Below the pieces are notes generated by a model. The model made no database searches and had not been told where the DNA came from. It saw only the letters and a list, made by a program, of their open reading frames with translations. A stretch of 64,000 nt of DNA from an uncultured Gammaproteobacteria bacterium. GTDB taxonomy: Bacteria; Patescibacteriota; Patescibacteriia; UBA9934; GWF2-40-263. The DNA lies in assembly GCA_964402425.1 (NCBI GenBank), contig CAYOCD010000001.1, forward strand, positions 163,442 to 227,441, read 5' to 3'. Position numbers and translations under genes: made by a program. Numbering within the stretch: position 1 is the first letter of the stretch; every line of letters begins with the position of its first letter. Positions 9,876 to 63,503 of the stretch are shown piece by piece.

Positions 9876-10400
9876 ATGAAATTGATTGTTGGACTTGGAA
9901 ATCCTGGAAAGAAATATGAACGAACACGTCACAATGTGGGGTTTTTGGTTGTAGAAGAACTTGCAAAACAATTAAACGTCCCCTTTAAAAACAAAACGTC
10001 GTTTGTGGCAGAAGTAGCAGAAGGAGATGGAATAACCCTCATGAAACCACAGACCTTCATGAATGTAAGTGGTCGCGCCGTAAAATCATATCTCACAAAA
10101 CACAAATGCACATCTGAAGATGTTTTAGTTATTTATGACGATGCAGACATACCATTTGGAGAGATCAAATTCAAACAAGGCGGATCTTCTGCGGGACACA
10201 ACGGCATGCAGTCCATTATTGATCAATTTGAAAAAGGAACATCCGTCGCACGCATTCGCATTGGAATTGGTCGTCCAACACACATAGACACACCCCTTGA
10301 TGTGTTCGTCTTACAAAAATGGACAAATGAAGAGGAAAAGAACATCCCCAACATGATCAAAACAACGATTGAAAAAATACATGCCCACATCGGATCTTAA
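9876..10400 (+). CDS. pth: Peptidyl-tRNA hydrolase
   Basis: MKLIVGLGNPG...HNG motifs; 174 aa. Confidence 0.95.
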   Translation: MKLIVGLGNPGKKYERTRHNVGFLVVEELAKQLNVPFKNKTSFVAEVAEGDGITLMKPQTFMNVSGRAVKSYLTKHKCTSEDVLVIYDDADIPFGEIKFKQGGSSAGHNGMQSIIDQFEKGTSVARIRIGIGRPTHIDTPLDVFVLQKWTNEEEKNIPNMIKTTIEKIHAHIGS

Positions 10401-20290: not shown

Positions 20291-20418
20291 TATAAAACAT
20301 TCAAAGTGAGATGCATCGCGCTGTGCTGGAGGAGAAAAATCTTTGAGTCGTAGACAGACCTACGGCGAAAAGATTTTTCTCCGAAGCGCAAGCGAGGCGC
20401 TCATTTTGAATGTTTTAT
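20291..20418. repeat. Palindromic MITE-like element copy A (about 128 nt): 19/20-bp terminal inverted repeats around a GC-rich core with a nested 14-bp perfect hairpin
   Basis: TIRs tataaaacattcaaagtgag / ctcattttgaatgttttat. Inner ggagaaaaatcttt...aaagatttttctcc with cgtag/ctacg at the centre. Abuts the tRNA-Met 3' end. Confidence 0.6.
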
Positions 20419-20494
20419 GGTAGCTGGAGAGGGGGTCGAACCCTCGACCTCGGGCTTATGAGTCCCGCGCTCTAACCAACTGAGCTACCCAGCC
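20418..20494 (-). tRNA. tRNA-Met (CAU), elongator type, CCA encoded
   Basis: Minus-strand GGCTGGGTAGCTCAGTTGGTTAGAGCGCGGGACTCATAAGCCCGAGGTCGAGGGTTCGACCCCCTCTCCAGCTACCA. Cloverleaf folds with anticodon loop CUCAUAA, T-loop TTCGACC, and 1-72 / 7-66 G-U pairs. Confidence 0.9.
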
Positions 20495-20621
20495 GTAAAA
20501 ACTTTCAAAATTGGCGATCTTTCGGCTTGCGCTCCGCGCGCTCCATCGAAGGGCATTTAAGCCCATCTCCGTCGCATGCTCGCGCTACACCGAAATCTCA
20601 TCCAATTTTGAAAGTTTTTAC
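20495..20621. repeat. Palindromic MITE-like element copy B (about 127 nt): perfect 20-bp terminal inverted repeats around a GC-rich about 87-nt core
   Basis: gtaaaaactttcaaaattgg ... ccaattttgaaagtttttac. The core shares gagcgcaagc and tgagat blocks with the reverse complement of copy A. Abuts the tRNA-Met 5' end. Confidence 0.6.
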
Positions 20622-20652
20622 ACTTACATTCATTGGATGAGCCTTGATTGTA

Positions 20653-20738
20653 TGGTGCCGACAGTGGGACTTGAACCCACATGAGTTTCCCCACACGATT
20701 TTGAGTCGTGCGCGTATACCAGTTCCGCCATGTCGGCC
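20653..20738 (-). tRNA. tRNA-Leu (CAA), long variable arm, CCA encoded
   Basis: GGCCGACATGGCGGAACTGGTATACGCGCACGACTCAAAATCGTG...GGGTTCAAGTCCCACTGTCGGCACCA. Same architecture as E. coli tRNA-Leu; anticodon loop CUCAAAA. Confidence 0.9.
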
Positions 20739-20791
20739 TATTAAGGTAGCGATAAGATATCAAAATCACAAAAAAATGTCCAGCGGCTAAG

Positions 20792-20820
20792 TTGACGCAT
20801 TTATTCAGATCCTGTATAAA
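20792..20820 (+). promoter_or_regulatory. Sigma-70-type promoter for initiator tRNA (TTGACG-17 nt-TATAAA)
   Basis: ttgacg catttattcagatcctg tataaa, with the tRNA 5' end about 19 nt downstream. Confidence 0.7.
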
Positions 20821-20838
20821 TATCACGCTAGGTTTTAC

Positions 20839-20915
20839 CGCGGGGTAGAGCAGCCTGGCAGCTCGTCGGGCTCATAACCCGAAGGTCATTGGTTCAAATC
20901 CAATCCCCGCAACCA
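20839..20915 (+). tRNA. Initiator tRNA-fMet (CAU), CCA encoded
   Basis: CGCGGGGTAGAGCAGCCTGGCAGCTCGTCGGGCTCATAACCCGAAGGTCATTGGTTCAAATCCAATCCCCGCAACCA. C1:A72 mismatch and three G-C pairs in the anticodon stem (GGG/CCC) are bacterial initiator hallmarks. Confidence 0.9.
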
Positions 20916-48667: not shown

Positions 48668-48842
48668 ATTCAAATGTTACAGACATCACTCTTGTAAATG
48701 ATCTCAATGAGGTAATTGGAGCAAAAGATATTTATCGCATCACAATCCTTTGAGTCACAAATTCGTAATAGGATCTTTTTCTTTGATCTTGTGATGATTA
48801 TGTACGGAAACAATCGATTGGCACAAAATATTCGCGTAAACA

Positions 48843-48874
48843 AAAACCGAGACTTATGAGTAGTCTCGGTTTTA
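48843..48874 (-). terminator. Rho-independent terminator downstream of the SPFH gene
   Basis: aaaaa-ccgagact-tatgagt-agtctcgg-tttt. Confidence 0.75.
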
Positions 48875-48885
48875 GATATATTCCT

Positions 48886-49638
48886 TTACTTTGCACCATC
48901 TCCCTTCATAAACGAAACGGCCTCTTGTACGGTTGTCATAAACTGTGCAGGAAAAATAATTGTGGAATTTTTCTCTACACTAATCTCTGCCATTGTTTGC
49001 AATGTTCTCAACTGAAGTGCAACTGGATGAGATGCAATGATGTCTGCCGCTTGTCCGAGTTTCACCGCCGCCTGAAACTCACCTTCCGCTGCAACGATTT
49101 TTGCACGGCGCTCACGTTCCGCTTCCGCCTCCTTTGCCATCGCGCGTTGCATGTTCTCCGGTAAGAAAATATCTTTAATTTCTACAACAGTTACCTGAAC
49201 TCCCCATGGTTCTGTATGAGAATCAATAACGTTTTTAATTTGCGAATTGATTGCTGCCGTTTGAGATAACACTTGATCCAATTCAAATTGCCCAATAACA
49301 TTACGAACGGTTGTTTGCGAAATTTGGTTTACCGCTTCATACACATTCTCAATTGCCAAAACGGATTTTGTGGAATCAACCACGTGATAATACGCCACAG
49401 CCGCAATGTCGATCGAAACATTATCTTTCGTGATAATTTTTTGTGACGGAATGTTCATGGTAATTGTTCGCAATGTCACCTTCGTCATTTGCTCAAGGAT
49501 TGGAACAAGAATGATCAAACCAGGACCACGCACACCCGTACATTTTCCAAGAAAAAAGATCACGCCACGATCATACTCTTTTACAACACGCAGTGAGAGA
49601 CTCAGAACAATTAAGGTGGCAAAAATGATGAAATACAT
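48886..49638 (-). CDS. SPFH/Band-7 (stomatin/prohibitin-like) membrane protein
   Basis: N-terminal TM, SPFH core, C-terminal coiled coil [27 protein letters not shown]. Confidence 0.85.
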
Positions 49639-49734
49639 ACAAATTTATTAACGAATAAACAATGAATACATAACTCTTCATATCTTCATCTAAAAACTCC
49701 CGATACGCAAGCATGCTTAAAACCGAATAGGGCC

Positions 49735-49777
49735 TTTTAAAAAAACATCTCGACAATTTCGAGATGTTTTTTCTTTT
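49735..49777 (-). terminator. Bidirectional terminator downstream of fusA
   Basis: aaaaaaa-catctcga-caatt-tcgagatg-ttttttctttt. Confidence 0.75.
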
Positions 49778-52889: not shown

Positions 52890-53060
52890 AGTGATGAGTT
52901 TAGGCTCGAAGAAAGCCGGATGGCCAAAGGGCCAATAAAGACATTATAAGAAAAATAAAACTCAAATAAATTGAGGTCGACGAATTTCTGAATTTCAGCA
53001 GCGTTTTATGTGGCCAAAAGATATCACGGAGATGGAAAAGCGTCAAGAATATTAAGGAAA

Positions 53061-53094
53061 AGAAAAACCCCAAGTGTTCAGAGAACACTTGGGG
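53061..53094 (-). terminator. Strong rho-independent terminator after the helicase gene
   Basis: Minus strand: ccccaagtgttc-tct-gaacacttgggg (12-bp stem) followed by tttttctttt. Confidence 0.8.
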
Positions 53095-53105
53095 TAAGAA
53101 AACCT

Positions 53106-56100
53106 CTACTGCAGGAGTTGCGTCGGCAATCCAGGGAACATGTTGAGACCGTCTTTGAGAACACGCTCGACATCGACCTTCGTCTTCCCCACCTTGCGAT
53201 AGAGACTGATTTTGGTCGAACCATTCCCGGGAATCACATGACACCACCAGGGTTCGCCTGCATTCGGGTACCGGGACAGATCGTCGCCATAGGGAGCATC
53301 GACAAGCTCGCGCTTGTACTCTGCAACCATGGTTCCGTTGCCGCGATCTCTGAACGTGAGGCAAACAACTTCACCCGATGTCACTTTTCGCTTGAGGTCA
53401 TCAACAAATGCGAGTTCGGCTTCAAGAGCCTTCTTCGCCTCGTCGAGTTCCGCAAGCCAAATTTCAATAAGCTCTTTATCTTCCACAAGTGACCGTGGAA
53501 GCCGGATCACATTTGAACGAACCACAACGCATTCTTCGCGATCAATGCGTTGACGTTCAATACGCGCCGCATTTTCACGCTCCAGCCGTTCAACGATCTC
53601 CGCATATCGCCGCAGTTCATTCGGCGCCGTCGTGAGATCAAACGCGTTCGTGCTATTCACACGCACACACGTAATCTCACGCTGATTACTATCACGGAAT
53701 TCCATCCGCTTTCCGCCCGAGTAATCGAACACGTACCCAAGGGCACGCACACGAGCATCGAGCACGGCGAACTCTTCGCGTAGTGGAGCGAATTCGGCTT
53801 GCGCCTTTTCGCGCGCCTTGCGCGTTTCTTCTTCGCGACGAGCATGCTCTGCGGCCACCTCACGTTCACGCTGCAGTTCTGCCGCGTGTTCCGCTTGGTA
53901 CGCCTTGAGCGCGTCGCCTGTGAGTATATCTTCTGACGTTATGGTGTTCATCGCAGCGACAACGAGTTCAGGTGTGGATTCCGCCACAATCTTTTTCGCA
54001 ATCGCTTTCGTGAACTGATCCACATACGGCTGAATGCGCTTGCGGCGCTCTTCTCCATAAACATACAACGCACTCGTCGGAAAATTCTGCTGCCACAGCT
54101 TTGCGAGCTGCGGTGCATTATTAACGAAAAACCCAAACCCGTCCGAAAGCTGCATTGCAACCAAAGCGGCAATGGACGGAATGAGCGTTTCCGGAATCGT
54201 CTCCAAGGTTTTACGCTCGAGTTCGATTCCGTTCCAGGTGCGACAACAAACGAACATCTCAGCACCGCTCGAGAAAATATTTTCTCGTGCCACACTAACC
54301 ACAGTCTTACACGCTTCCACCGGAACAAGTTCCGACAACCATTTCTCGTCAATCGCATGACATCCGTGCATGTAGGTTTTGGTTCCACGATCGCTCGTGG
54401 TTCCCATTGCCTTCGTGCACACAAGCAATTCCGGCGGATCATCTCCAAACAGCGCAGAGCCGGGAGAGATGAACGTCGTGCGATCGTTCCAGGAATAATT
54501 GAACCGCCCAGACTTCTGAGCGATATTCACAATGAGCCCCGAGGCAACAGCCTTGCGGAGCTTGAGGGAATCTTGCGACGACGAATAGGTAACCCCTTCC
54601 TGCTCGAGCGTGCTCATCAGTTGATCGCGCAAACGATCCACCTGAGTGAGCGCACGAGACGAAAGGAAATTCTCCCTCGCCCACCGATGATCTCCGTCGG
54701 TCCGGTCCCAGTCCCGCCACACCTTGAGAAAAGTGAGCAAGTCCGAGTTCGGATCGTCAAAGCCTTTCTTCGCCCGACGAGCTTCTTCACGCTTGTCCTT
54801 CGGAGCAACGAAGATCGGCCTCGTGCCGGCAAGGCACGCAGCGATCGTGATCACTTCATCGAGACATTCGTGCCGTTCGCCCTCGAGAATCATGCGCCCA
54901 ATCATCGGCTCCACATGGAACCGCTTCATCCGCATGCCATCCTTCGTGACCTCGCCGTCCGCATCGAGCGCACCGAGCAGCTTCAGACGCGTTTCCGCAT
55001 CCTTCCACTGCACAGTCTTCGGTGCATCCATGAGATCTAGGGCGAGAATTTCCGAAAGCGTATACTTCAGGCAGCGCAAATCCAGGAGCACTTGATCGAG
55101 CGACATGCGCAGGATCTCGGGCTTCGTGAACGCCACGCGGCTTTCGAAATCTTCCTGACTGAACAGACGATGGCAGATGCCATCTTGAGTTCGACCCGCC
55201 CGGCCCTTACGCTGATCGCAACCGGCACGAGAGTGCTCGGTGACTTGCAGCGCAGACATCGACGCATCCACGTACACCGTTGCCTTGATCTGTCCAGAGT
55301 CGACCACGTGTCGAACTCCGTCAATCGTGAGCGAGGTTTCCGCGATGTTCGTCGCCACAATGATGCGGCGGCGACCATCCACCTTGAACACTTCTTTCTG
55401 ATCATCCGGCGCCTGCGAGCCGTAAAGCGGCAGGAACCGATAGCGCGACAATTCGCGTTCCTTTTCCTTCTCGAGAGCATTCACGACTTGCGTGATGCTT
55501 GCTTGATCAGGGAGAAACGCAAGAATGTCGCCCGGCTCATTGTTGTGCAAGATCTCGAGAATCTTCTCGATCATTGCCTTGACCATGTCGCCGCTCTCCG
55601 GCGTCTCCTTCGCGTAGCGGACCTCGACCGGGAAAACCCGACCAGGAACCGTGAGCACAGGAGCGTTGCCGAAGTACTTCGAGAACTTCTCCGTATCGAT
55701 CGTGGCCGACATGACCACAACCTTGAGGTCTGCACGCTTCGGGAGCACGCTCTTCACGAGCGCCATGAGAAGGTCTTGATTCACGCCGCGCTCATGCACC
55801 TCGTCGAGGCAGATGACGCTGTAGCGATGAAGAAGCGGATCCGAATGGAGCTGGTTCAGCAGCACACCTTCGGTGATGTACGCGAGTCGCGTTTCATCTC
55901 CGAGCATACGATCCTGTCCAATCTGGTAACCCACCACAGCCCCGAGATCGGTGCCGTAGAGTTCAGACACCCAGTCTGCGAGCATGGTCGCAGCCGGCCG
56001 CCGAGGTTCGGAAACCCCGATTAGCTTGTGGCTACCGAGTCCGGCCCGCAAAAGCGCGAGCGGACCCTTGGTCGACTTTCCCGCGCCGGTTTGGGCGGCG

Positions 56101-56180
56101 AGAATGACAACCTGGTTTTTACGAACAAGGTCGAGAAACTCGGCCTCATATGCATCAAACGGAAGAATGAGTTCAGACAC
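53106..56180 (-). CDS. DEAH/RHA-family ATP-dependent helicase (HrpB/HrpA-like) with an uncharacterised about 440-aa C-terminal extension; visibly GC-rich gene
   Basis: Motif I AQTGAGKST, II LDEVHER, V TNIAETSLTIDGV, VI QRKGRAGR, then HA2/OB-like. The C-terminal half is rich in coiled-coil/charged segments. GC is clearly above flanks by eye. Confidence 0.8.
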   Translation of the reverse strand: MSELILPFDAYEAEFLDLVRKNQVVILAAQTGAGKSTKGPLALLRAGLGSHKLIGVSEPRRPAATMLADWVSELYGTDLGAVVGYQIGQDRMLGDETRLAYITEGVLLNQLHSDPLLHRYSVICLDEVHERGVNQDLLMALVKSVLPKRADLKVVVMSATIDTEKFSKYFGNAPVLTVPGRVFPVEVRYAKETPESGDMVKAMIEKILEILHNNEPGDILAFLPDQASITQVVNALEKEKERELSRYRFLPLYGSQAPDDQKEVFKVDGRRRIIVATNIAETSLTIDGVRHVVDSGQIKATVYVDASMSALQVTEHSRAGCDQRKGRAGRTQDGICHRLFSQEDFESRVAFTKPEILRMSLDQVLLDLRCLKYTLSEILALDLMDAPKTVQWKDAETRLKLLGALDADGEVTKDGMRMKRFHVEPMIGRMILEGERHECLDEVITIAACLAGTRPIFVAPKDKREEARRAKKGFDDPNSDLLTFLKVWRDWDRTDGDHRWARENFLSSRALTQVDRLRDQLMSTLEQEGVTYSSSQDSLKLRKAVASGLIVNIAQKSGRFNYSWNDRTTFISPGSALFGDDPPELLVCTKAMGTTSDRGTKTYMHGCHAIDEKWLSELVPVEACKTVVSVARENIFSSGAEMFVCCRTWNGIELERKTLETIPETLIPSIAALVAMQLSDGFGFFVNNAPQLAKLWQQNFPTSALYVYGEERRKRIQPYVDQFTKAIAKKIVAESTPELVVAAMNTITSEDILTGDALKAYQAEHAAELQREREVAAEHARREEETRKAREKAQAEFAPLREEFAVLDARVRALGYVFDYSGGKRMEFRDSNQREITCVRVNSTNAFDLTTAPNELRRYAEIVERLERENAARIERQRIDREECVVVRSNVIRLPRSLVEDKELIEIWLAELDEAKKALEAELAFVDDLKRKVTSGEVVCLTFRDRGNGTMVAEYKRELVDAPYGDDLSRYPNAGEPWWCHVIPGNGSTKISLYRKVGKTKVDVERVLKDGLNMFPGLPTQLLQ

Positions 56181-56194
56181 GTGTCACCTCTGAT

Positions 56195-56275
56195 TTTGTG
56201 TCATTGCGAGGAGTTCGACGACGAAGCAATCTTAACGAAAAGGTTGCTTCGCTTCGCTCGCAATGACAGTTGCCT
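56195..56275 (-). other. Long (about 75 nt) nested inverted-repeat hairpin in the helicase 5' leader
   Basis: gtcattgcgag...ctcgcaatgac outer 11-bp IR enclosing gaagcaatc...ggttgcttc. Confidence 0.45.
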
Positions 56276-56400
56276 AAAATGGTTCGGTTTTATCGAACAA
56301 TCGTACAAAAACTCAGACGAACTTCGCCTAATTTTTGACGGATAACTATATCACAAAAATGCACTTTTGTCAAGTGTTTACGGGGACTTTTTGTATTTTT

Positions 56401-56435: not shown

Positions 56436-57128
56436 TTAATGAGTTTCCCCCATTGCATCCGCAAAAGTGCGAACGCGAGCGGGATTCAGTTCTGTGTGTG
56501 AATCACTGATTCCGGTCGCGACAAGGAAATAGTCGGCGTACGGAAGGAATAAACGAATGTTTTCTGGAGTCATACCGCTTGCAATCGCAAGGGGCTTGTC
56601 CGGAACCGCTTCTTTCATGAGACGAATCTTGTCGACATCCGGAGCCGATCCTGTTCCAGAACCGCTCGTTGTGATGACGTCCACAAATGGTGCGGCGAGC
56701 TTGGCATCCGATGCCGGATCGCCAAACTGTGGTTGATACTTGAATGCGACTCCTCCAAAGAACAATCCTTTCCACCGCTGAGCCGTAGCCTTTTGAATCG
56801 CACGATACCGACGTGCGTTATACGAAGGATCCGCAAGGTCAGCGCGAATATCAACGGAATCAACCCAGATCCCGGAAACATCCGGAGGAACAATCGTAAG
56901 TATTTGTGCCGGTTCAAGACCAAGACAATTCAGTCCGATCCAAGCTCTTGGAAACAACCTGCGTATCTGACAAAAAATAGTCAGAAGTTGCTGTGATGTG
57001 ATTGAGTGATTGATGAGAAAAATTCCATGTGCACCATTCTCAAACGCAACATGCACATTGCGCAAAGCTTGCGCGGAATATTCCACATGGATGACGGGAA
57101 GAAATGCGCGCTTCGGAAGATGAAACAT
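56436..57128 (-). CDS. BtpA/SgcQ-family TIM-barrel protein (tentative)
   Basis: LPVIHVEY...GAHGIFLINH N-terminus and ITTSGSGTGSAPDVDKIRLMKEAV...AIASGMTPENI resemble BtpA family motifs. Start at MFHLPKRAF. Confidence 0.5.
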   Translation of the reverse strand: MFHLPKRAFLPVIHVEYSAQALRNVHVAFENGAHGIFLINHSITSQQLLTIFCQIRRLFPRAWIGLNCLGLEPAQILTIVPPDVSGIWVDSVDIRADLADPSYNARRYRAIQKATAQRWKGLFFGGVAFKYQPQFGDPASDAKLAAPFVDVITTSGSGTGSAPDVDKIRLMKEAVPDKPLAIASGMTPENIRLFLPYADYFLVATGISDSHTELNPARVRTFADAMGETH

Positions 57129-57206
57129 GGAACACCTCAACAAAATGAACTAAAGAAACGTTAGCGAAAAAACATGATTACGTCAACATTTCTTCCCAAT
57201 AAAAAA

Positions 57207-60756: not shown

Positions 60757-60905
60757 GGAAAGGGCGGAAGTGGCAGAGAGGGCAGAAAAGGCGGAAAGGA
60801 ACGAAAGAAACAAGAGCCAATTTGGCTCTTTTTTGTTCACGCTTTCCACCCCATCCCTTTCCGCCCATTCCGCCTTTTCAGCCTTTTCCGCCCTTTTTCA
60901 TTACG
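60757..60905. repeat. About 150-nt imperfect inverted repeat (purine-rich GGCGGAAAGG-type arm / pyrimidine-rich CCTTTCCGCC-type arm) centred on a perfect intrinsic terminator (about 60811-60836)
   Basis: Left arm gggaaagggcggaag...ggcggaaagg. Centre aagagccaa-tttggctct-tttttt. Right arm ctttccacc...ccgccttttcagccttttccgccc. Plus ORF 60680..60910 and minus ORF 60577..60849 here are spurious. Confidence 0.6.
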
Positions 60906-60914
60906 TTTGACATA

Positions 60915-60939
60915 AGTAAGTGTCTATATTACACTTACT
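60915..60939 (+). promoter_or_regulatory. 25-bp palindrome AGTAAGTGT-n7-ACACTTACT overlapping TTGACA / TATAAT-like hexamers upstream of pncA (candidate operator)
   Basis: 9-bp perfect arms. TTGACA at about 60907 and TATAAT at about 60939 are 26 nt apart, so the promoter assignment is uncertain. Confidence 0.4.
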
Positions 60940-61122
60940 ATAATTTAAAGGACATTTCAAACAAAAAACACCTAAGAAAAACCATTGACATTTTGCGCAA
61001 AATTGGATATTCTTCCCCGTCCTAAGGTGGTGTTTTTCAATGAATACATCTGCGGAAAACACAGGGTTTCCCGCAGATGCCGTTCGTTGAACGTCCCCAT
61101 GGTGGGGATTGAGGTGAGAGCC

Positions 61123-61881
61123 ATGTTGAATGATGAAGGTTTGATTCAGATCGGAAAGGGTGATGCGGTCATCGTCGTCGATGCCACGGGAGCATTCGGT
61201 CCGGACGGCGGACTGCCCGTGCCCGGCGCCCTTGAGATCATCAAGGTCATTCGAGAACTCGTCTTGAAGTTCAAGCGCCGTCAGCGCTTCAACGTCTTTG
61301 ATGCGCACCCAAGAGGTCACATCAACTATCGCACCTCCTACGTGAAGCGGGCCCGTGGTCCGCTCAACATCACGGAAGTTCTGGGCAATAAGATCAAGAT
61401 TGCGAGTCATGCACTCTTCACCCGCGAAGATTTGATCGCCTACCTCATGCGTCTGAATCGGCACGAAACACTCCTCTGGGACGAACATGCCGAAATGACC
61501 ACAAGCGAGATTCGTCTCTTCGACGGTCTGCGCGATCTCGAAGACGCATTCGTCCTTCACTTCCCGAAGGGCACGGATCCAAAAATCGACAGCTACAGTG
61601 CGTTTCGCGATACGCTTTGGATGCCGACCGGTCTTGGTCGCATTCTAAAAGAACGTGGCATCAAACGTGTATTCATCGTCGGTCTTGCGTTCGACTTCTG
61701 CGTTGGCTTCACAGCTGAAGACGCCGCGCTCGAAGGTTTCGAGTCCTACATCGTCCGCGACGGTACACGCTCTGTCGGCCTTCCCGCCGAAGGTGACTAC
61801 CCCGGTTCGATTGCCTTCATGGAAGCGCGTCTCATCGCTCGCGGTGTAAAGTGCATCAACTCGAATCAGATCCAAGCCTAA
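61123..61881 (+). CDS. pncA: Nicotinamidase / pyrazinamidase (isochorismatase-like cysteine hydrolase)
   Basis: VIVVDATGAFGPDGGLPVPGA (D...G), IVGLAFDFCVGFTAEDAALEGF (catalytic Cys). Start at MLNDEG with SD gaggtgag 8 nt upstream; the track ORF begins at 60985. GC-rich. Confidence 0.8.
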   Translation: MLNDEGLIQIGKGDAVIVVDATGAFGPDGGLPVPGALEIIKVIRELVLKFKRRQRFNVFDAHPRGHINYRTSYVKRARGPLNITEVLGNKIKIASHALFTREDLIAYLMRLNRHETLLWDEHAEMTTSEIRLFDGLRDLEDAFVLHFPKGTDPKIDSYSAFRDTLWMPTGLGRILKERGIKRVFIVGLAFDFCVGFTAEDAALEGFESYIVRDGTRSVGLPAEGDYPGSIAFMEARLIARGVKCINSNQIQA

Positions 61882-61947
61882 TTCACTCGCTCTTTTAGCC
61901 CCCCTCGCTCTTCATCTCGAAGGGCCCTTTTCTTAAGCACCTCAACC

Positions 61948-61990
61948 AGTGGGATGCTTCAATCAAAGGTTCGGAACAAGCAGGAGGTCG
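61948..61990 (+). promoter_or_regulatory. Conserved 5'-UTR motif copy 1 (TGGGAYGCTTCAATCAAARGYTCRGAACA...AGGAG) immediately upstream of nadD
   Basis: agtgggatgcttcaatcaaaggttcggaacaagcaggaggtcg followed by the TTG start. Contains the gttcggaac palindrome. Confidence 0.55.
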
Positions 61991-61991
61991 T

Positions 61992-62627
61992 TTGAAAGAA
62001 GAATGCAACGAACAAAAACCACGGACAATCCTCTACAGCGGGAGTTTTGATCCTCCGGGATATCACAACACAGCAACAGCAAAAGCTCTCGCAGATTTTG
62101 CATCGGAAAATGACGTCGTTTGGATTCTTCCTTACGGAGGTCGTCCGAAAAAAAACGGAATCTCGAAATGGCAGGATCGCAGAGAGATGATTCTCCGTGC
62201 GCTGTGTGGATCCAAAAAAACCATTCTGGATTTCATGGATCTCAAACACAGAGAAATGACACCGAACATTGATATGGACCGACGCTTTCGAGACAGACAG
62301 CCGAACCGTGAGGTGTGGCATGTAATCGGAGCGAATATGATTGTGGGTGGAGCAAAGAAACAGTCGAAGATTCATCAGAGGTGGAAAGAGGGACCTTGGG
62401 TCTTTGACCACTTGAACTTCATTATTCTTGTAACACCAAATTCACCAATCAACAAAGAAGACCTTCCTCCGCGCCACAATATCCTGAGAGTGAACACTCA
62501 AGGGACAAGTCAGGAAATTCGGAATCGGGTATCGCGCGGCGAACCGATCGATCATCTTGTTCCTTCGAACGTACTTTCGTACATTCAGGAACACAAACTG
62601 TACTTTCCCAACTCTGCAGAGACCTAA
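61992..62627 (+). CDS. nadD: Nicotinate/nicotinamide mononucleotide adenylyltransferase (NadD-like), TTG start
   Basis: ILYSGSFDPPGYHN (nucleotidyltransferase (H/T)xGH-type motif) and C-terminal SQEIRNRVSRGEPIDHLVPSNVLSYIQEHKLY (ISSTxIR-like). SD caggagg 4 nt before TTG. Confidence 0.75.
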   Translation: MKEECNEQKPRTILYSGSFDPPGYHNTATAKALADFASENDVVWILPYGGRPKKNGISKWQDRREMILRALCGSKKTILDFMDLKHREMTPNIDMDRRFRDRQPNREVWHVIGANMIVGGAKKQSKIHQRWKEGPWVFDHLNFIILVTPNSPINKEDLPPRHNILRVNTQGTSQEIRNRVSRGEPIDHLVPSNVLSYIQEHKLYFPNSAET

Positions 62628-62661
62628 AAAAATCTCTGCCTTTTTCTCAAGCGCCCCAAAT

Positions 62662-62704
62662 GCTGGGACGCTTCAATCAAAAGCTCAGAACACAAGGAGA
62701 CTCG
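62662..62704 (+). promoter_or_regulatory. Conserved 5'-UTR motif copy 2 immediately upstream of the first LOG/SLOG-like gene
   Basis: gctgggacgcttcaatcaaaagctcagaacacaaggagactcg followed by ATG. About 75% identical to copy 1 over 43 nt, with an identical 12-nt core GCTTCAATCAAA. A terminator-like hairpin gcagaga...tctctgc overlaps the nadD stop just upstream. Confidence 0.55.
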
Positions 62705-63478
62705 ATGTCTATCATCATTCCTTCCCTGTTCATAAAGAACCAAGGAGATCAGTCAGTGAAGATCGCTCTGAAGCTGACGACCGCTCGGCAACGAGTTGTT
62801 GTACGGATCACGGGTGGATGCGGATATATGTCTGACGAAGACACGCAAGATTTTCTCTCGCTCTTCGCGGAAGCGTTCTCTGGTTTTGCGGGCGCCATGC
62901 TCTTTGGTGGCACACGCATGATCGAGAAAGAAAACGCTTCAAGAATTGTCCCCGGGATCACCGAGATTCCGTCGCACATTCGCGAGCGTTGTCCAGAAAT
63001 GGTTTCGCTTGGAGTCGTTCCAAGAACCTCTGACATTAAAATCACAGAACACGGACTCGTGGTTTCGGAGAGTGATGAGGATGCGTATCGCACCATCATT
63101 CATCCAAGCCAAGACATGTGCCTGCTGGTTCAAGTGTCTCCGGATCAACCGGCCATTTGGGATGCCGAGTTCGAAGAGTGCCTTCAGATCACGCGCGACC
63201 TGCGCGAGTTCGCGGAGTTCAAGTCACTACTCGTTGTTTACAACGGTGGTGGCGTGACCGAACGCGAACTTCTTGCAACAGCAAAACAGGGCTGGCCGAT
63301 TCTGCTCATCAAGGGCAGCGGCCGCATCGCGGATGCGTACGCAGCGAACACGAAGTTCCTTGCCGCACACCCAAATGTTCGCGTCGCAGAAAAAGATTCT
63401 GACGACATCAGGCAACATCTCATTTCATTCGGGATGCTTCCCCCGGAGAAACTGCGTCTCGTGAAATCACGGGCGTAG
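62705..63478 (+). CDS. Rossmann-like protein with LOG/SLOG-like glycine motifs (paralog A), function unknown
   Basis: RITGGCGYM (compare GGGxxGxM) and LFGGTRMIE (compare PGGxGTxEE). Start at MSIIIPS with SD aaggag 6 nt upstream; the track ORF begins at 62660 inside the UTR motif. Confidence 0.55.
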   Translation: MSIIIPSLFIKNQGDQSVKIALKLTTARQRVVVRITGGCGYMSDEDTQDFLSLFAEAFSGFAGAMLFGGTRMIEKENASRIVPGITEIPSHIRERCPEMVSLGVVPRTSDIKITEHGLVVSESDEDAYRTIIHPSQDMCLLVQVSPDQPAIWDAEFEECLQITRDLREFAEFKSLLVVYNGGGVTERELLATAKQGWPILLIKGSGRIADAYAANTKFLAAHPNVRVAEKDSDDIRQHLISFGMLPPEKLRLVKSRA

Positions 63479-63503
63479 AAAATCAGGAAGTACGTTGGTG
63501 ATC

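What the first reader, a model, noticed from the sequence alone, without database searches (positions are those of the whole stretch)
53061..56275. GC-rich HrpB-like DEAH helicase with a 440-aa novel C-terminal half and a 75-nt hairpin leader, inserted beside the str operon
Helicase motifs I-VI are canonical. After the HA2/OB region the protein continues for about 440 aa of charged/coiled-coil sequence with no recognisable domain. The gene composition is visibly GC-rich versus the flanking rpsL and BtpA-like genes. It has its own strong terminator and a long nested inverted repeat in the 5' leader. This pattern fits a horizontally acquired RNA/DNA helicase, possibly a defence- or repair-related module.
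Basis: partly seen in the sequence, partly recalled or inferred. Interest (0 to 1): 0.5.

Follow-up and report, generated by a model that had tools for sequence, protein, structure and literature searches.

The report
Patescibacterial DEAH RNA helicase, uncharacterised tail
This is an intact RNA helicase of a family found only in the tiny "candidate phyla radiation" bacteria, with an uncharacterised 400-residue tail; it is an old, stably placed resident next to the ribosomal str operon rather than a recent foreign insertion, and its leader hairpin is a separate small mobile palindrome.

Summary
ORF 53106-56180 (- strand, 1024 aa) is an intact DEAH/RHA helicase (RecA1, RecA2, winged helix, ratchet, OB; residues 1-620). 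The following 404 aa match no Pfam family and no solved structure. GC3 is 0.63 against about 0.36 in some 60 neighbouring genes. The gene has its own promoter and a strong terminator, and a 68-nt hairpin lies in the leader.

- **Not HrpB-like.** The core is closest to Prp22/DHX8 and HrpA, and it fails the defining features of both HrpA and HrpB.
- **Family-restricted tail.** Only 15 cluster representatives among 1.84 billion proteins match it, all from the same Patescibacteria helicase family. It is predicted to fold confidently, ending in a probable OB/S1-like barrel.
- **Not a recent insertion.** The order murA-M50-(BtpA)-helicase-rpsL-rpsG-fusA and the GC3 excess recur in every related locus examined, including one where EF-G is only 85% identical. 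Synonymous divergence matches the flanks and dN/dS is 0.16-0.38. Any transfer is old.
- **No defence context** was found.
- **The hairpin is not part of the conserved leader.** It is an inserted copy of a palindromic element found across many phyla and in viral contigs.

The function is inferred, not shown: an ATP-driven 3'->5' RNA/RNP remodeller whose tail does the targeting.

The parts
56345..56373 (-). Sigma-70-like promoter of the helicase gene: TTGACA, 17 nt, TG-TATAGT (11 of 12 matches)
   Evidence: Consensus scan. The hexamers and their spacing are conserved in six orthologous loci. Function is inferred, not shown.
56274..56343 (-). Conserved 5' leader. It holds an A-tract/GC hairpin/U-tract terminator-like stem-loop (about 56302-56340) and a second small hairpin (about 56282-56298).
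   Evidence: The sequence is conserved in six loci, including the distant L129 (A5, A6). One pair shows compensatory change (A-U / G-C / G-U). No Rfam match. A role as a cis-regulator or attenuator is inference.
56200..56267 (-).
   Evidence: Arms GTCATTGCGAG/CTCGCAATGAC; fold z -5.0. Present only in the window and in L005/L006/L133, and absent from L001, L003, L138 and L129. The same element family occurs in more than 120 genomes of many phyla and in 118 viral contigs. A second copy sits at a different site in L001.
56184..56190 (-). Shine-Dalgarno sequence GAGGTGA, 3 nt before the GTG start
   Evidence: Read directly from the sequence; conserved in the orthologous loci.
54321..56180 (-). Helicase core, residues 1-620: RecA1, RecA2, winged helix, ratchet (HA2) and OB
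   Evidence: Pfam. PDB sequence hits: Prp22 399 bits, HrpA 355 bits. AF2 per-10-residue block means are mostly 86-97, with a few blocks at 69-82. Foldseek against Prp22, Prp16 and Prp2 gives target-normalised TM-scores of about 0.85-0.9.
53925..54320 (-). Tail module 1, residues 621-752: three-stranded sheet plus a helical bundle
   Evidence: AF2 C-terminal model, mean pLDDT 91.4. No Pfam or PDB match. This is the most divergent segment, at most 66% identical to any relative.
53376..53915 (-). Tail module 2, residues 756-935: long charged helices (756-813, 828-872, 896-935) with a low-confidence linker at 873-895. Most family members carry a CPxCG...C...H zinc ribbon plus a beta domain at this linker; that insert is missing here.
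   Evidence: Secondary structure from AF2. The insert is present in P0002-4 and P0007-30 and absent from the window protein, P0005 and P0006 (A1).
53109..53375 (-). Tail module 3, residues 936-1024: five-stranded small beta barrel (938-996), a helix, and the conserved FPGLPxxLLQ end; probably an OB/S1-like fold
   Evidence: AF2. Weak fold hits of about 60-119 columns, most of them to OB folds: eIF1A, Rrp4/Csl4, the S1 domains of RNase II/R, NusA S1, RuvA N-terminal domain, RPA, Dis3L2 and Rrp44. Family-invariant residues are P972, W978 and C980. Which part of the model aligned was not reported, so assigning the hits to this barrel is inference.
53057..53095 (-). Intrinsic terminator: 13-bp stem ACCCCAAGTGTTC/GAACACTTGGGGT followed by TTTTTCTTTT
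   Evidence: Scan; fold -25.1 kcal/mol, z -5.3.

Best explanation
The gene encodes a catalytically intact DEAH/RHA-type (Prp22/HrpA-like) helicase. It belongs to a family confined to Patescibacteria and best represented in Candidatus Uhrbacteria.

Mechanism of the core (inferred by homology). RecA1 and RecA2 hydrolyse NTP. Together with the winged-helix, ratchet and OB domains they form the tunnel through which single-stranded RNA is pulled 3'->5', unwinding RNA or stripping proteins from it.

Role of the tail (inferred). The family-specific 404-aa tail consists of an alpha/beta-plus-helical domain, a long helical arm and a terminal OB/S1-like barrel. It most likely acts as the targeting or adaptor module that decides which RNA or RNP is remodelled. 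This is the role played by the unrelated C-terminal regions of HrpA (collided ribosomes) and of the eukaryotic Prp/DHX helicases.

Likely target (weak inference). A ribosome- or translation-linked substrate is the best guess. The grounds are the HrpA precedent and the conserved position directly upstream of rpsL-rpsG-fusA.

Gene organisation. The gene is an independent transcription unit: its own promoter, a conserved leader with a terminator-like hairpin, a Shine-Dalgarno sequence, a GTG start and a strong terminator.

Evolutionary history. The gene has been inherited vertically in its present position since before this genus-to-family-level clade diverged. It evolves under purifying selection that is 4-10 times weaker than on its neighbours, and its segments show mosaic relationships among close lineages. 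Its GC-rich codon usage is old and shared by all syntenic orthologs. If it reflects horizontal acquisition, plausibly from a GC-rich patescibacterial lineage, the event was ancient.

The hairpin. The 68-nt hairpin is a later, lineage-specific insertion of a mobile palindromic element and is not part of the helicase system.
For: Shown here.
- Domains and invariant motifs.
- Core sequence and fold match Prp22, Prp16, Prp2, Prp43 and HrpA.
- The AF2 models are confident: pLDDT 87.3 for the full protein and 91.4 for the tail.
- The tail is found only inside this helicase family: 15 representatives among 1.84 billion proteins, all family members or fragments of them.
- Source names are Candidatus Uhrbacteria or Patescibacteria.
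- Synteny is conserved in L001-L006, L129, L133 and L138.
- The GC3 excess is conserved: 0.59-0.66 against 0.33-0.47.
- Helicase dS is 0.65-1.1, against 0.95-1.5 for murA and 0.4-0.6 for fusA. dN/dS is 0.16-0.22 in the core and 0.27-0.38 in the tail, against 0.02-0.05 in the flanks.
- Nucleotide identity shows no sharp boundary.
- Segment identities are mosaic: the core is 91-96% identical to P0002, while residues 873-1024 are 79-93% identical to P0005.
- Promoter, terminator and conserved leader.
- The hairpin is present or absent independently of the gene.
- The weak fold hits to the tail are mostly OB folds.

From the literature. The HrpA C-terminal region binds collided ribosomes and is required for splitting them, and diverse C-terminal domains specialise this helicase clade (PMC11419001).
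Against: - No biochemical or expression data exist, so both the substrate (RNA or DNA) and the target are inferred.
- The ribosome link rests only on gene adjacency, which holds in one subclade (helicase identity of about 49% or more). It is lost in more distant homologs, which sit next to RtcB/GGDEF, ADP-ribosylglycohydrolases, or HAD/racemase genes. The gene is also transcribed separately from the str operon.
- The GC3 excess persisting across saturated synonymous divergence (W-L129 dS 1.6-2.0) is not explained by simple ancient transfer followed by amelioration.
- The window protein lacks the zinc-ribbon and beta insert that most family members have, so it may not behave like the typical member.
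Confidence: 0.6

Rival explanations
1. One reading: a recently acquired foreign RNA/DNA helicase, possibly a defence or repair module, inserted next to the str operon.
For: Strong compositional outlier: GC3 0.63 against 0.36, and tetranucleotide z 5.0. The gene has its own promoter and terminator. The adjacent BtpA-like gene is variable and is replaced by an unrelated gene in L001.
Against: The same position and the same GC3 excess occur in every syntenic relative, out to fusA 85% identity. dS equals that of the flanks and there is no sharp identity boundary. No integrase, tRNA or flanking direct repeats are present. PADLOC gives only generic Cas3-helicase similarity at E 3e-7 or weaker, with no partner genes. 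All close homologs are patescibacterial.
Confidence: 0.05
2. It is the functional counterpart of HrpA in Patescibacteria. It would be a collision-sensing ribosome rescue helicase whose non-homologous tail (long helical arm plus OB barrel) has replaced the DUF3418 'Hook' region to fit the unusual ribosomes of these bacteria.
For: The core is 34% identical to E. coli HrpA over 601 residues. HrpA needs its C-terminal region to bind and split collided ribosomes (PMC11419001). The tail contains long helices and a probable RNA-binding barrel. The gene lies immediately upstream of rpsL-rpsG-fusA in a whole subclade.
Against: The tail shows no detectable homology to the HrpA C-terminal region (hhalign 0.5%), and HrpA is not among the listed fold hits. 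The adjacency is not conserved in more distant family members. The transcription units are separate. In the NJ tree the family lies outside the HrpA clade.
Confidence: 0.2
3. It is a DNA-directed or repair-type helicase acting on R-loops, G-quadruplexes or DNA, rather than an RNA/RNP remodeller.
For: Some DEAH/RHA helicases (DHX36, DHX9) act on DNA structures, and DHX36 is among the PDB hits. The weak fold hits to the tail include the OB domains of RuvA and RPA. RmuC is a neighbour of one distant homolog.
Against: The closest characterised relatives (Prp22, Prp16, Prp43, HrpA) are RNA helicases. No repair genes lie nearby in the window or in the syntenic loci. The RuvA and RPA hits are just OB folds, with E of 0.04 or worse.
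Confidence: 0.1
4. It is a decaying or non-functional gene, and the fast protein divergence reflects loss of constraint.
For: Protein identity to relatives is only 71-78% where the flanking proteins are 92-99% identical. The family's zinc-ribbon domain and, relative to some members, a 45-aa N-terminal extension are missing.
Against: The 1024-codon reading frame is uninterrupted and all catalytic motifs are intact. dN/dS is 0.16-0.38, well below 1. The identical protein was recovered from at least nine contigs in several samples. The fold is predicted with confidence.
Confidence: 0.03

Closest known systems
E. coli HrpA (DEAH/RHA RNA helicase; ribosome-collision rescue factor)
   Same: The RecA1-RecA2-WH-ratchet-OB core is shared: 34% identity over residues 6-588, and 355 bits against the PDB HrpA chains. 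Both have a long C-terminal extension beyond the OB domain. Both are bacterial.
   Different: The helicase core begins at residue 6 here but at residue 77 of HrpA, so the N-terminal domain is missing. There is no DUF3418 C-terminal region (no Pfam hit; hhalign 0.5%). The score is below the NCBIfam HrpA cutoffs (449.6 against 722.75; 407.6 against 1400). The protein falls outside the HrpA clade in the NJ tree.
Eukaryotic spliceosomal DEAH helicases Prp22/DHX8, Prp16, Prp2/DHX16 and Prp43/DHX15
   Same: These give the best sequence and fold matches to the core: 399-344 bits, about 35-37% identity, and target-normalised TM-scores of about 0.85-0.9. In the NJ tree they group with the patescibacterial family at 94% bootstrap, to the exclusion of HrpA.
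   Different: The organism is bacterial. The N-terminal S1/RS regions of those proteins are absent, no G-patch partner is known, and the tail is entirely different. The tree is a distance tree with limited sampling and an HrpB root, so the grouping is provisional.
E. coli HrpB
   Same: The DExH core through the start of the ratchet is shared: 36% identity over residues 6-435.
   Different: The alignment stops at about residue 450. The score is 216 bits, against 355-399 for HrpA and Prp22. There is no HrpB connector or C-terminal region (hhalign 0.4%; the features are defined in PMC7237152). The score is below the NCBIfam cutoff (354.7 against 546.15).
REP/MITE-type bacterial palindromic repeats (for the leader hairpin only)
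   Same: A short (68-83 nt) non-coding imperfect palindrome. It is intergenic, and its presence differs between close relatives. Copies occur at different sites within one genus.
   Different: An exact 22-nt arm is shared across many phyla and viral contigs, whereas classical REPs are species- or genus-specific. Only one copy lies in this 64-kb window. No associated transposase was looked for. No Rfam family or paper describing it was found.

Membership tests
DEAH/RHA (SF2) helicases | Motifs I, Ia, Ib, II (DExH), III, IV, V and VI in two RecA-like domains | tested here: met
   GAGKST 32-37, DEVH 126-129, SAT 158-160, TNIAETS 277-283 and QRKGRAGR 323-330 are invariant in 62 sequences. Pfam DEAD and Helicase_C both score above their cutoffs.
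DEAH/RHA (SF2) helicases | Winged-helix, ratchet (HA2) and OB auxiliary domains following RecA2 | tested here: met
   HA2_N, HA2_C and OB_NTP_bind all score above the Pfam cutoffs. The fold superposes on Prp22, Prp16 and Prp2 over about 625 columns.
DEAH/RHA (SF2) helicases | RNA-stimulated NTPase activity and 3'->5' unwinding | not testable with these tools
   This needs biochemistry on the purified protein.
HrpA | DUF3418-type C-terminal region (two alpha+beta domains plus the Hook domain), as described in PMC11419001 | tested here: not met
HrpA | N-terminal domain preceding the core (E. coli residues 1-76) | tested here: not met
   The alignment starts at query residue 6 and HrpA residue 77. 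The ORF cannot extend upstream.
HrpA | Score above the NCBIfam equivalog cutoffs (TIGR01967, NF008348) | tested here: not met
   449.6 against 722.75, and 407.6 against 1400.
HrpA | Phylogenetic placement within the HrpA clade | tested here: not met
   In the NJ tree of 605 core columns, E. coli HrpA and the DUF3418-bearing P0118 form a 100% clade. That clade lies outside a 94% clade holding the query family. The method is a distance method only, so the result is provisional.
HrpB | Connector plus conserved HrpB C-terminal region (PMC7237152) | tested here: not met
   No Pfam HrpB_C hit; hhalign probability 0.4%.
HrpB | Score above the NCBIfam equivalog cutoffs (TIGR01970, NF008662) | tested here: not met
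   354.7 against 546.15, and 317.3 against 1053. The match covers only residues 14-453.
Anti-phage defence systems (PADLOC models) | Match to a defence-system protein model, together with the partner genes of that system | tested here: not met
   Only Cas3-type helicase-core similarity at E 3e-7 to 1e-3 over residues 120-287. The neighbours are BtpA-like, M50 protease, murA and rpsL.
Recently acquired genomic island | Composition deviating from the host genome | tested here: met
   GC3 0.627 against about 0.36; delta* z 3.9; tetranucleotide z 5.0.
Recently acquired genomic island | Absence from close relatives at the same site, or sharp boundaries in sequence identity | tested here: not met
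   The gene is present at the same site in all nine related loci examined. Sliding identity changes gradually. dS is comparable to that of the flanks.
Recently acquired genomic island | Mobility signatures: integrase or transposase, a tRNA target, flanking direct repeats | tested here: not met
   The nearest tRNAs are at 20.4-20.9 kb. No integrase or transposase appears among the neighbouring genes called in the related loci. No dedicated repeat search was run here (one search failed). The only repeat is the palindrome inside the leader, and it does not flank the gene.

The most novel reading that the evidence does not exclude
The Patescibacteria-specific tail is a convergent ribosome- or RNP-docking arm: a long helical arm, zinc-ribbon-tipped in most members, plus an S1/OB barrel. 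On this reading the family would be the candidate-phyla-radiation counterpart of HrpA-type collision rescue, or a ribosome-biogenesis helicase of eukaryote-like (Prp22/DHX) ancestry. Its GC-rich codon usage, maintained across saturated synonymous divergence, would reflect a gene-specific selective or recombinational force rather than a relic of transfer.
Probability: 0.15. Interest if true: 0.6.

Novelty: new variant of a known kind. Interest (0 to 1): 0.35.

Why it matters
Patescibacteria have very small genomes, yet they retain this 1000-residue helicase. Its tail has no relatives outside the family and no characterised function. In HrpA and in the eukaryotic Prp/DHX enzymes the equivalent region decides the cellular target. 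Working out what this tail binds would therefore show which RNA-remodelling task these reduced, episymbiotic bacteria cannot do without, and whether a ribosome-rescue or biogenesis helicase has evolved a different docking solution.

The locus is also a caution for scans based on composition. A gene can be a strong GC and tetranucleotide outlier and still be an old, syntenic resident.

The inserted hairpin is a separate point of interest. It exposes a palindromic element with a near-identical arm in many bacterial phyla and in viral contigs, for which I found no description.

Tried and rejected
- **Rfam.** The gathering-threshold scan of the whole window found only three tRNAs. E-value scans of the leader and of the terminator region gave only sub-threshold chance hits.
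- **Literature.** A string search for the palindrome arms returned only primer coincidences. A search for 'Patescibacteria DEAH helicase' returned nothing relevant.
- **PADLOC.** Generic helicase similarity only.
- **Sequence searches of the tail.** Pfam at E up to 10 gave only noise (DUF6779, DUF4419). PDB phmmer gave nothing meaningful.
- **Fold searches.** afdb50 was unavailable. The full-length model returned only the helicase core.
- **Amelioration test.** I polarised singleton changes at four-fold sites. The helicase gave GC->AT 58 against AT->GC 29, and the flanks gave the reverse. I rejected this as evidence because parsimony at dS of about 1 produces the same bias.
- **Allelic replacement.** I looked for a sharp recombination boundary around the gene and found none, only segment-level mosaicism inside the gene.
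- **Assembly chimera.** Considered and rejected. The same arrangement was recovered independently in NCBI, ENA, JGI and Logan assemblies.
- **Failed call.** The repeat finder on a minus-strand reference failed. The arms were located with the DNA search instead.


Full report
**What is there**

The window carries a 1024-codon ORF at 53106-56180 on the - strand, starting with GTG. Pfam places DEAD (14-162), Helicase_C (204-331), HA2_N (395-418), HA2_C (424-484) and OB_NTP_bind (541-620) on it, and nothing beyond residue 620. The catalytic motifs are GAGKST, DEVH, SAT, TNIAETS and QRKGRAGR. All are intact and invariant in alignments of 24 and 62 family members.

The gene is 55.6% GC with GC3 0.627. 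About 60 other ORFs in the 64 kb have GC3 of 0.20-0.51. GC1 and GC2 are ordinary, so the anomaly lies in codon choice. The 3-kb window over the gene is the top outlier for dinucleotide signature (z 3.9) and tetranucleotide distance (z 5.0).

- A 13-bp GC-rich hairpin with a T-run sits just after the stop codon (53057-53095; -25.1 kcal/mol, z -5.3).
- A 68-nt nested inverted repeat sits at 56200-56267, 9 nt before the Shine-Dalgarno sequence.

**Which helicase**

Against the PDB sequences, residues 6-621 score best with Prp22 (399 bits) and DHX8 (387 bits). Prp16 (about 369), DHX16/Prp2 (about 367), HrpA (about 355) and Prp43/DHX15 (about 344-349) follow. HrpB scores 216 bits and aligns only to residue 449. 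Pairwise BLAST gives 34% identity to E. coli HrpA over 601 residues. For HrpB it gives 36% over 434 residues, ending before the ratchet.

The NCBIfam equivalog models for HrpA and HrpB both match below their cutoffs. The AF2 model (pLDDT 87.3) superposes on the Prp22, Prp16 and Prp2 cores over about 625 columns.

A bootstrapped NJ tree on 605 core columns gives two results:
- E. coli HrpA and a DUF3418-bearing HrpA form a 100% clade.
- That clade lies outside a 94% clade uniting the patescibacterial helicases with eukaryotic Prp22/DHX8/DHX16-like sequences.

This is a distance tree with limited sampling, so it is indicative only. 'HrpB-like' is wrong. The protein is a DEAH/RHA helicase of the HrpA/Prp22 type and is a member of neither bacterial named family.

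**The tail**

Residues 621-1024 have no Pfam hit above noise and no PDB sequence hit. A tail profile has 0.5% hhalign probability against the HrpA C-terminal region and 0.4% against the HrpB one.

An exhaustive phmmer search of 1.84 billion cluster representatives found only 15 hits. All are long helicases of this family or 5'-truncated fragments of them. Where a source gives a name, it is Candidatus Uhrbacteria or Patescibacteria.

With a 59-sequence alignment, AF2 predicts the tail confidently (mean pLDDT 91.4). The predicted parts are:
- a three-stranded sheet plus a helical bundle (621-752);
- long charged helices (756-813, 828-872, 896-935) around a low-confidence linker;
- a five-stranded small barrel (938-996) and a final helix with a conserved FPGLPxxLLQ end.

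Most family members carry a CPxCG...C...H zinc ribbon plus a beta domain of about 85 aa at the linker. The window protein, P0005 and P0006 lack it.

**Is it an insertion?**

No, or at least not a recent one. The order murA - M50 protease - (BtpA-like) - helicase - rpsL - rpsG - fusA is found in:
- L001 (a Candidatus Uhrbacteria MAG), L002-4, L005/6, L133 and L138;
- L129, with one extra gene after the helicase, where EF-G is only 85% identical to the window's.

In each of these loci where composition was measured, the helicase has GC3 of 0.59-0.66 against 0.33-0.47 for most neighbours. More distant homologs (41-44% identity) lie elsewhere. Two of them sit in 58-62% GC genomes where their composition matches the flanks. 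A GC-rich patescibacterial source is therefore plausible for an old transfer.

Between the window and its near relatives, helicase dS (0.65-1.1) is comparable to murA (0.95-1.5) and fusA (0.4-0.6). Sliding nucleotide identity shows no sharp boundary.

What differs is the protein-level rate. The helicase is 71-78% identical where MurA is 92-95% and EF-G 97-99%. dN/dS is 0.16-0.22 in the core and 0.27-0.38 in the tail, against 0.02-0.05 in the flanks. This is weaker purifying selection, but selection is clearly present.

Segment identities are mosaic. The core is 91-96% identical to P0002. Residues 873-1024 are closest to P0005 (79-93%). Residues 621-760 are at most 66% identical to anything. 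This suggests intragenic recombination among related lineages.

No mobility genes or tRNA flank the gene. PADLOC shows only generic helicase similarity.

The persistence of high GC3 across saturated synonymous divergence (W-L129 dS 1.6-2.0) remains unexplained. My polarised-substitution test was inconclusive.

**Regulatory region**

Downstream of a terminator-like hairpin that ends the BtpA-like gene lies a near-consensus promoter: TTGACA, 17 nt, TG-TATAGT, at 56345-56373. A leader of about 70 nt follows, conserved in six loci including L129.

Its consensus fold is an A-tract/GC-hairpin/U-tract stem-loop, which is the architecture of an intrinsic terminator, followed by a second small hairpin. 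One pair shows compensatory change. This may be an attenuator or a protein-binding leader. That is inference, and no Rfam family matches.

**The hairpin**

The 68-nt palindrome lies between this conserved leader and the Shine-Dalgarno sequence in the window, in L133 and in L005/6. It is absent from L001, L003, L138 and L129. L001 has the same element in the opposite orientation in the murA-M50 spacer, where the window has only 3 nt.

An exact 22-mer of its arm occurs in more than 120 species genomes, and the scan stopped at its limit. These span Alphaproteobacteria, Chloroflexota, Planctomycetota, Omnitrophota, Bacteroidota, Cyanobacteria, Legionellales and others. It also occurs in 118 IMG/VR viral contigs.

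Of the genome hits, 74% are complete palindromes with a median length of 83 nt and the same architecture: outer stem, asymmetric middle, inner stem, variable loop. For the viral hits the figure is 46%, with a median of 82 nt.

Several short-read contigs carrying the identical protein break 48 nt upstream of the start codon, which is inside the palindrome.

The hairpin is thus a mobile palindromic insertion and not a feature of the helicase. Its effect on expression is unknown.

**How it most likely works**

Shown:
- an intact DEAH/RHA core with a tunnel-forming WH-ratchet-OB module;
- a tail that is under selection and confidently folded;
- an independent transcription unit;
- vertical inheritance in this clade.

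Inferred by homology with Prp22, Prp43 and HrpA: NTP-driven 3'->5' translocation on single-stranded RNA, which unwinds duplexes or remodels RNPs.

Inferred by analogy: the tail targets the motor. HrpA's unrelated C-terminal region docks on collided ribosomes and is essential for splitting them. The authors of that work argue that diverse C-terminal domains specialise this helicase clade (PMC11419001).

A translation- or ribosome-related target is my best guess, at roughly 20-35%. It rests on that precedent and on the subclade-wide adjacency to the str operon.

**Verdict**

This is an uncharacterised variant of a known enzyme class. It is already in the databases as 'HrpA-like RNA helicase' or 'helicase-related protein'. 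It has a tail module that is restricted to the family and matches no known domain, and an unexplained conserved compositional anomaly. It is not a recent horizontal insertion or a defence module.

Noticed in passing
window 56200-56267; also L001 8313-8383, L005 about 9905-9975, and loci L007-L126 and L139-L218: The leader hairpin belongs to a palindromic element family. Its architecture is GTCATTGCGAG-CGAAGCGAAG-CAATCC, a variable loop, then GGATTG-CTTCG(TCG)CTTCGCTC-CTCGCAATGAC. Its exact 22-nt arm occurs in more than 120 species genomes of many phyla and in 118 viral contigs; complete copies have a median length of about 83 nt. Presence varies between close Uhrbacteria, and a second site is occupied in L001. 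I found no Rfam family and no paper describing it.
   Followed up: partly
window 56274-56343 (- strand): A conserved 5' leader follows the helicase promoter. It has a terminator-like A-tract/GC-hairpin/U-tract stem-loop and then a second hairpin. The sequence is conserved in six loci despite saturated synonymous divergence, and one pair shows compensatory change. It is a candidate attenuator or cis-regulatory RNA. No Rfam match.
   Followed up: partly
window 60900-63500 (ORFs 60985-61881 and 62660-63478, + strand): A second GC-rich block (GC3 0.58-0.63) corresponds to the NAD-salvage-type cluster of relatives (isochorismatase/nicotinamidase, LSDAT, NAD kinase-like, NAPRTase). It is likewise GC-rich (GC3 0.55-0.72) and syntenic in L001 and L003. 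The helicase is therefore not the only conserved compositional outlier.
   Followed up: partly
window 56436-57143 (- strand): The BtpA-like gene upstream of the helicase is unusually variable. It is 64-69% identical between genomes whose EF-G is 97-99% identical, and L001 has an unrelated 214-aa ORF in its place.
   Followed up: partly
window 53106-56180; compare P0002 (L138) and P0005 (L005): The helicase shows mosaic ancestry. The core is 91-96% identical to P0002, but the last 150 residues are closest to P0005 (79-93%). P0005 shares the same deletion junction where the zinc-ribbon domain is missing. Some relatives (P0002, P0006) also have a 45-aa N-terminal extension that is absent here.
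   Followed up: partly
window 48700-49750: The segment between fusA and the next conserved genes, which includes a 250-aa SPFH/band-7-like ORF at 48886-49638, is absent from L001 and L003 and poorly aligned in L005. It is another variable spot flanking the str operon.
   Followed up: no
window 20418-20915: A cluster of three tRNA genes: tRNA-Met (CAT) and tRNA-Leu (CAA) on the - strand, and a second, divergently oriented tRNA-Met (CAT) on the + strand.
   Followed up: no
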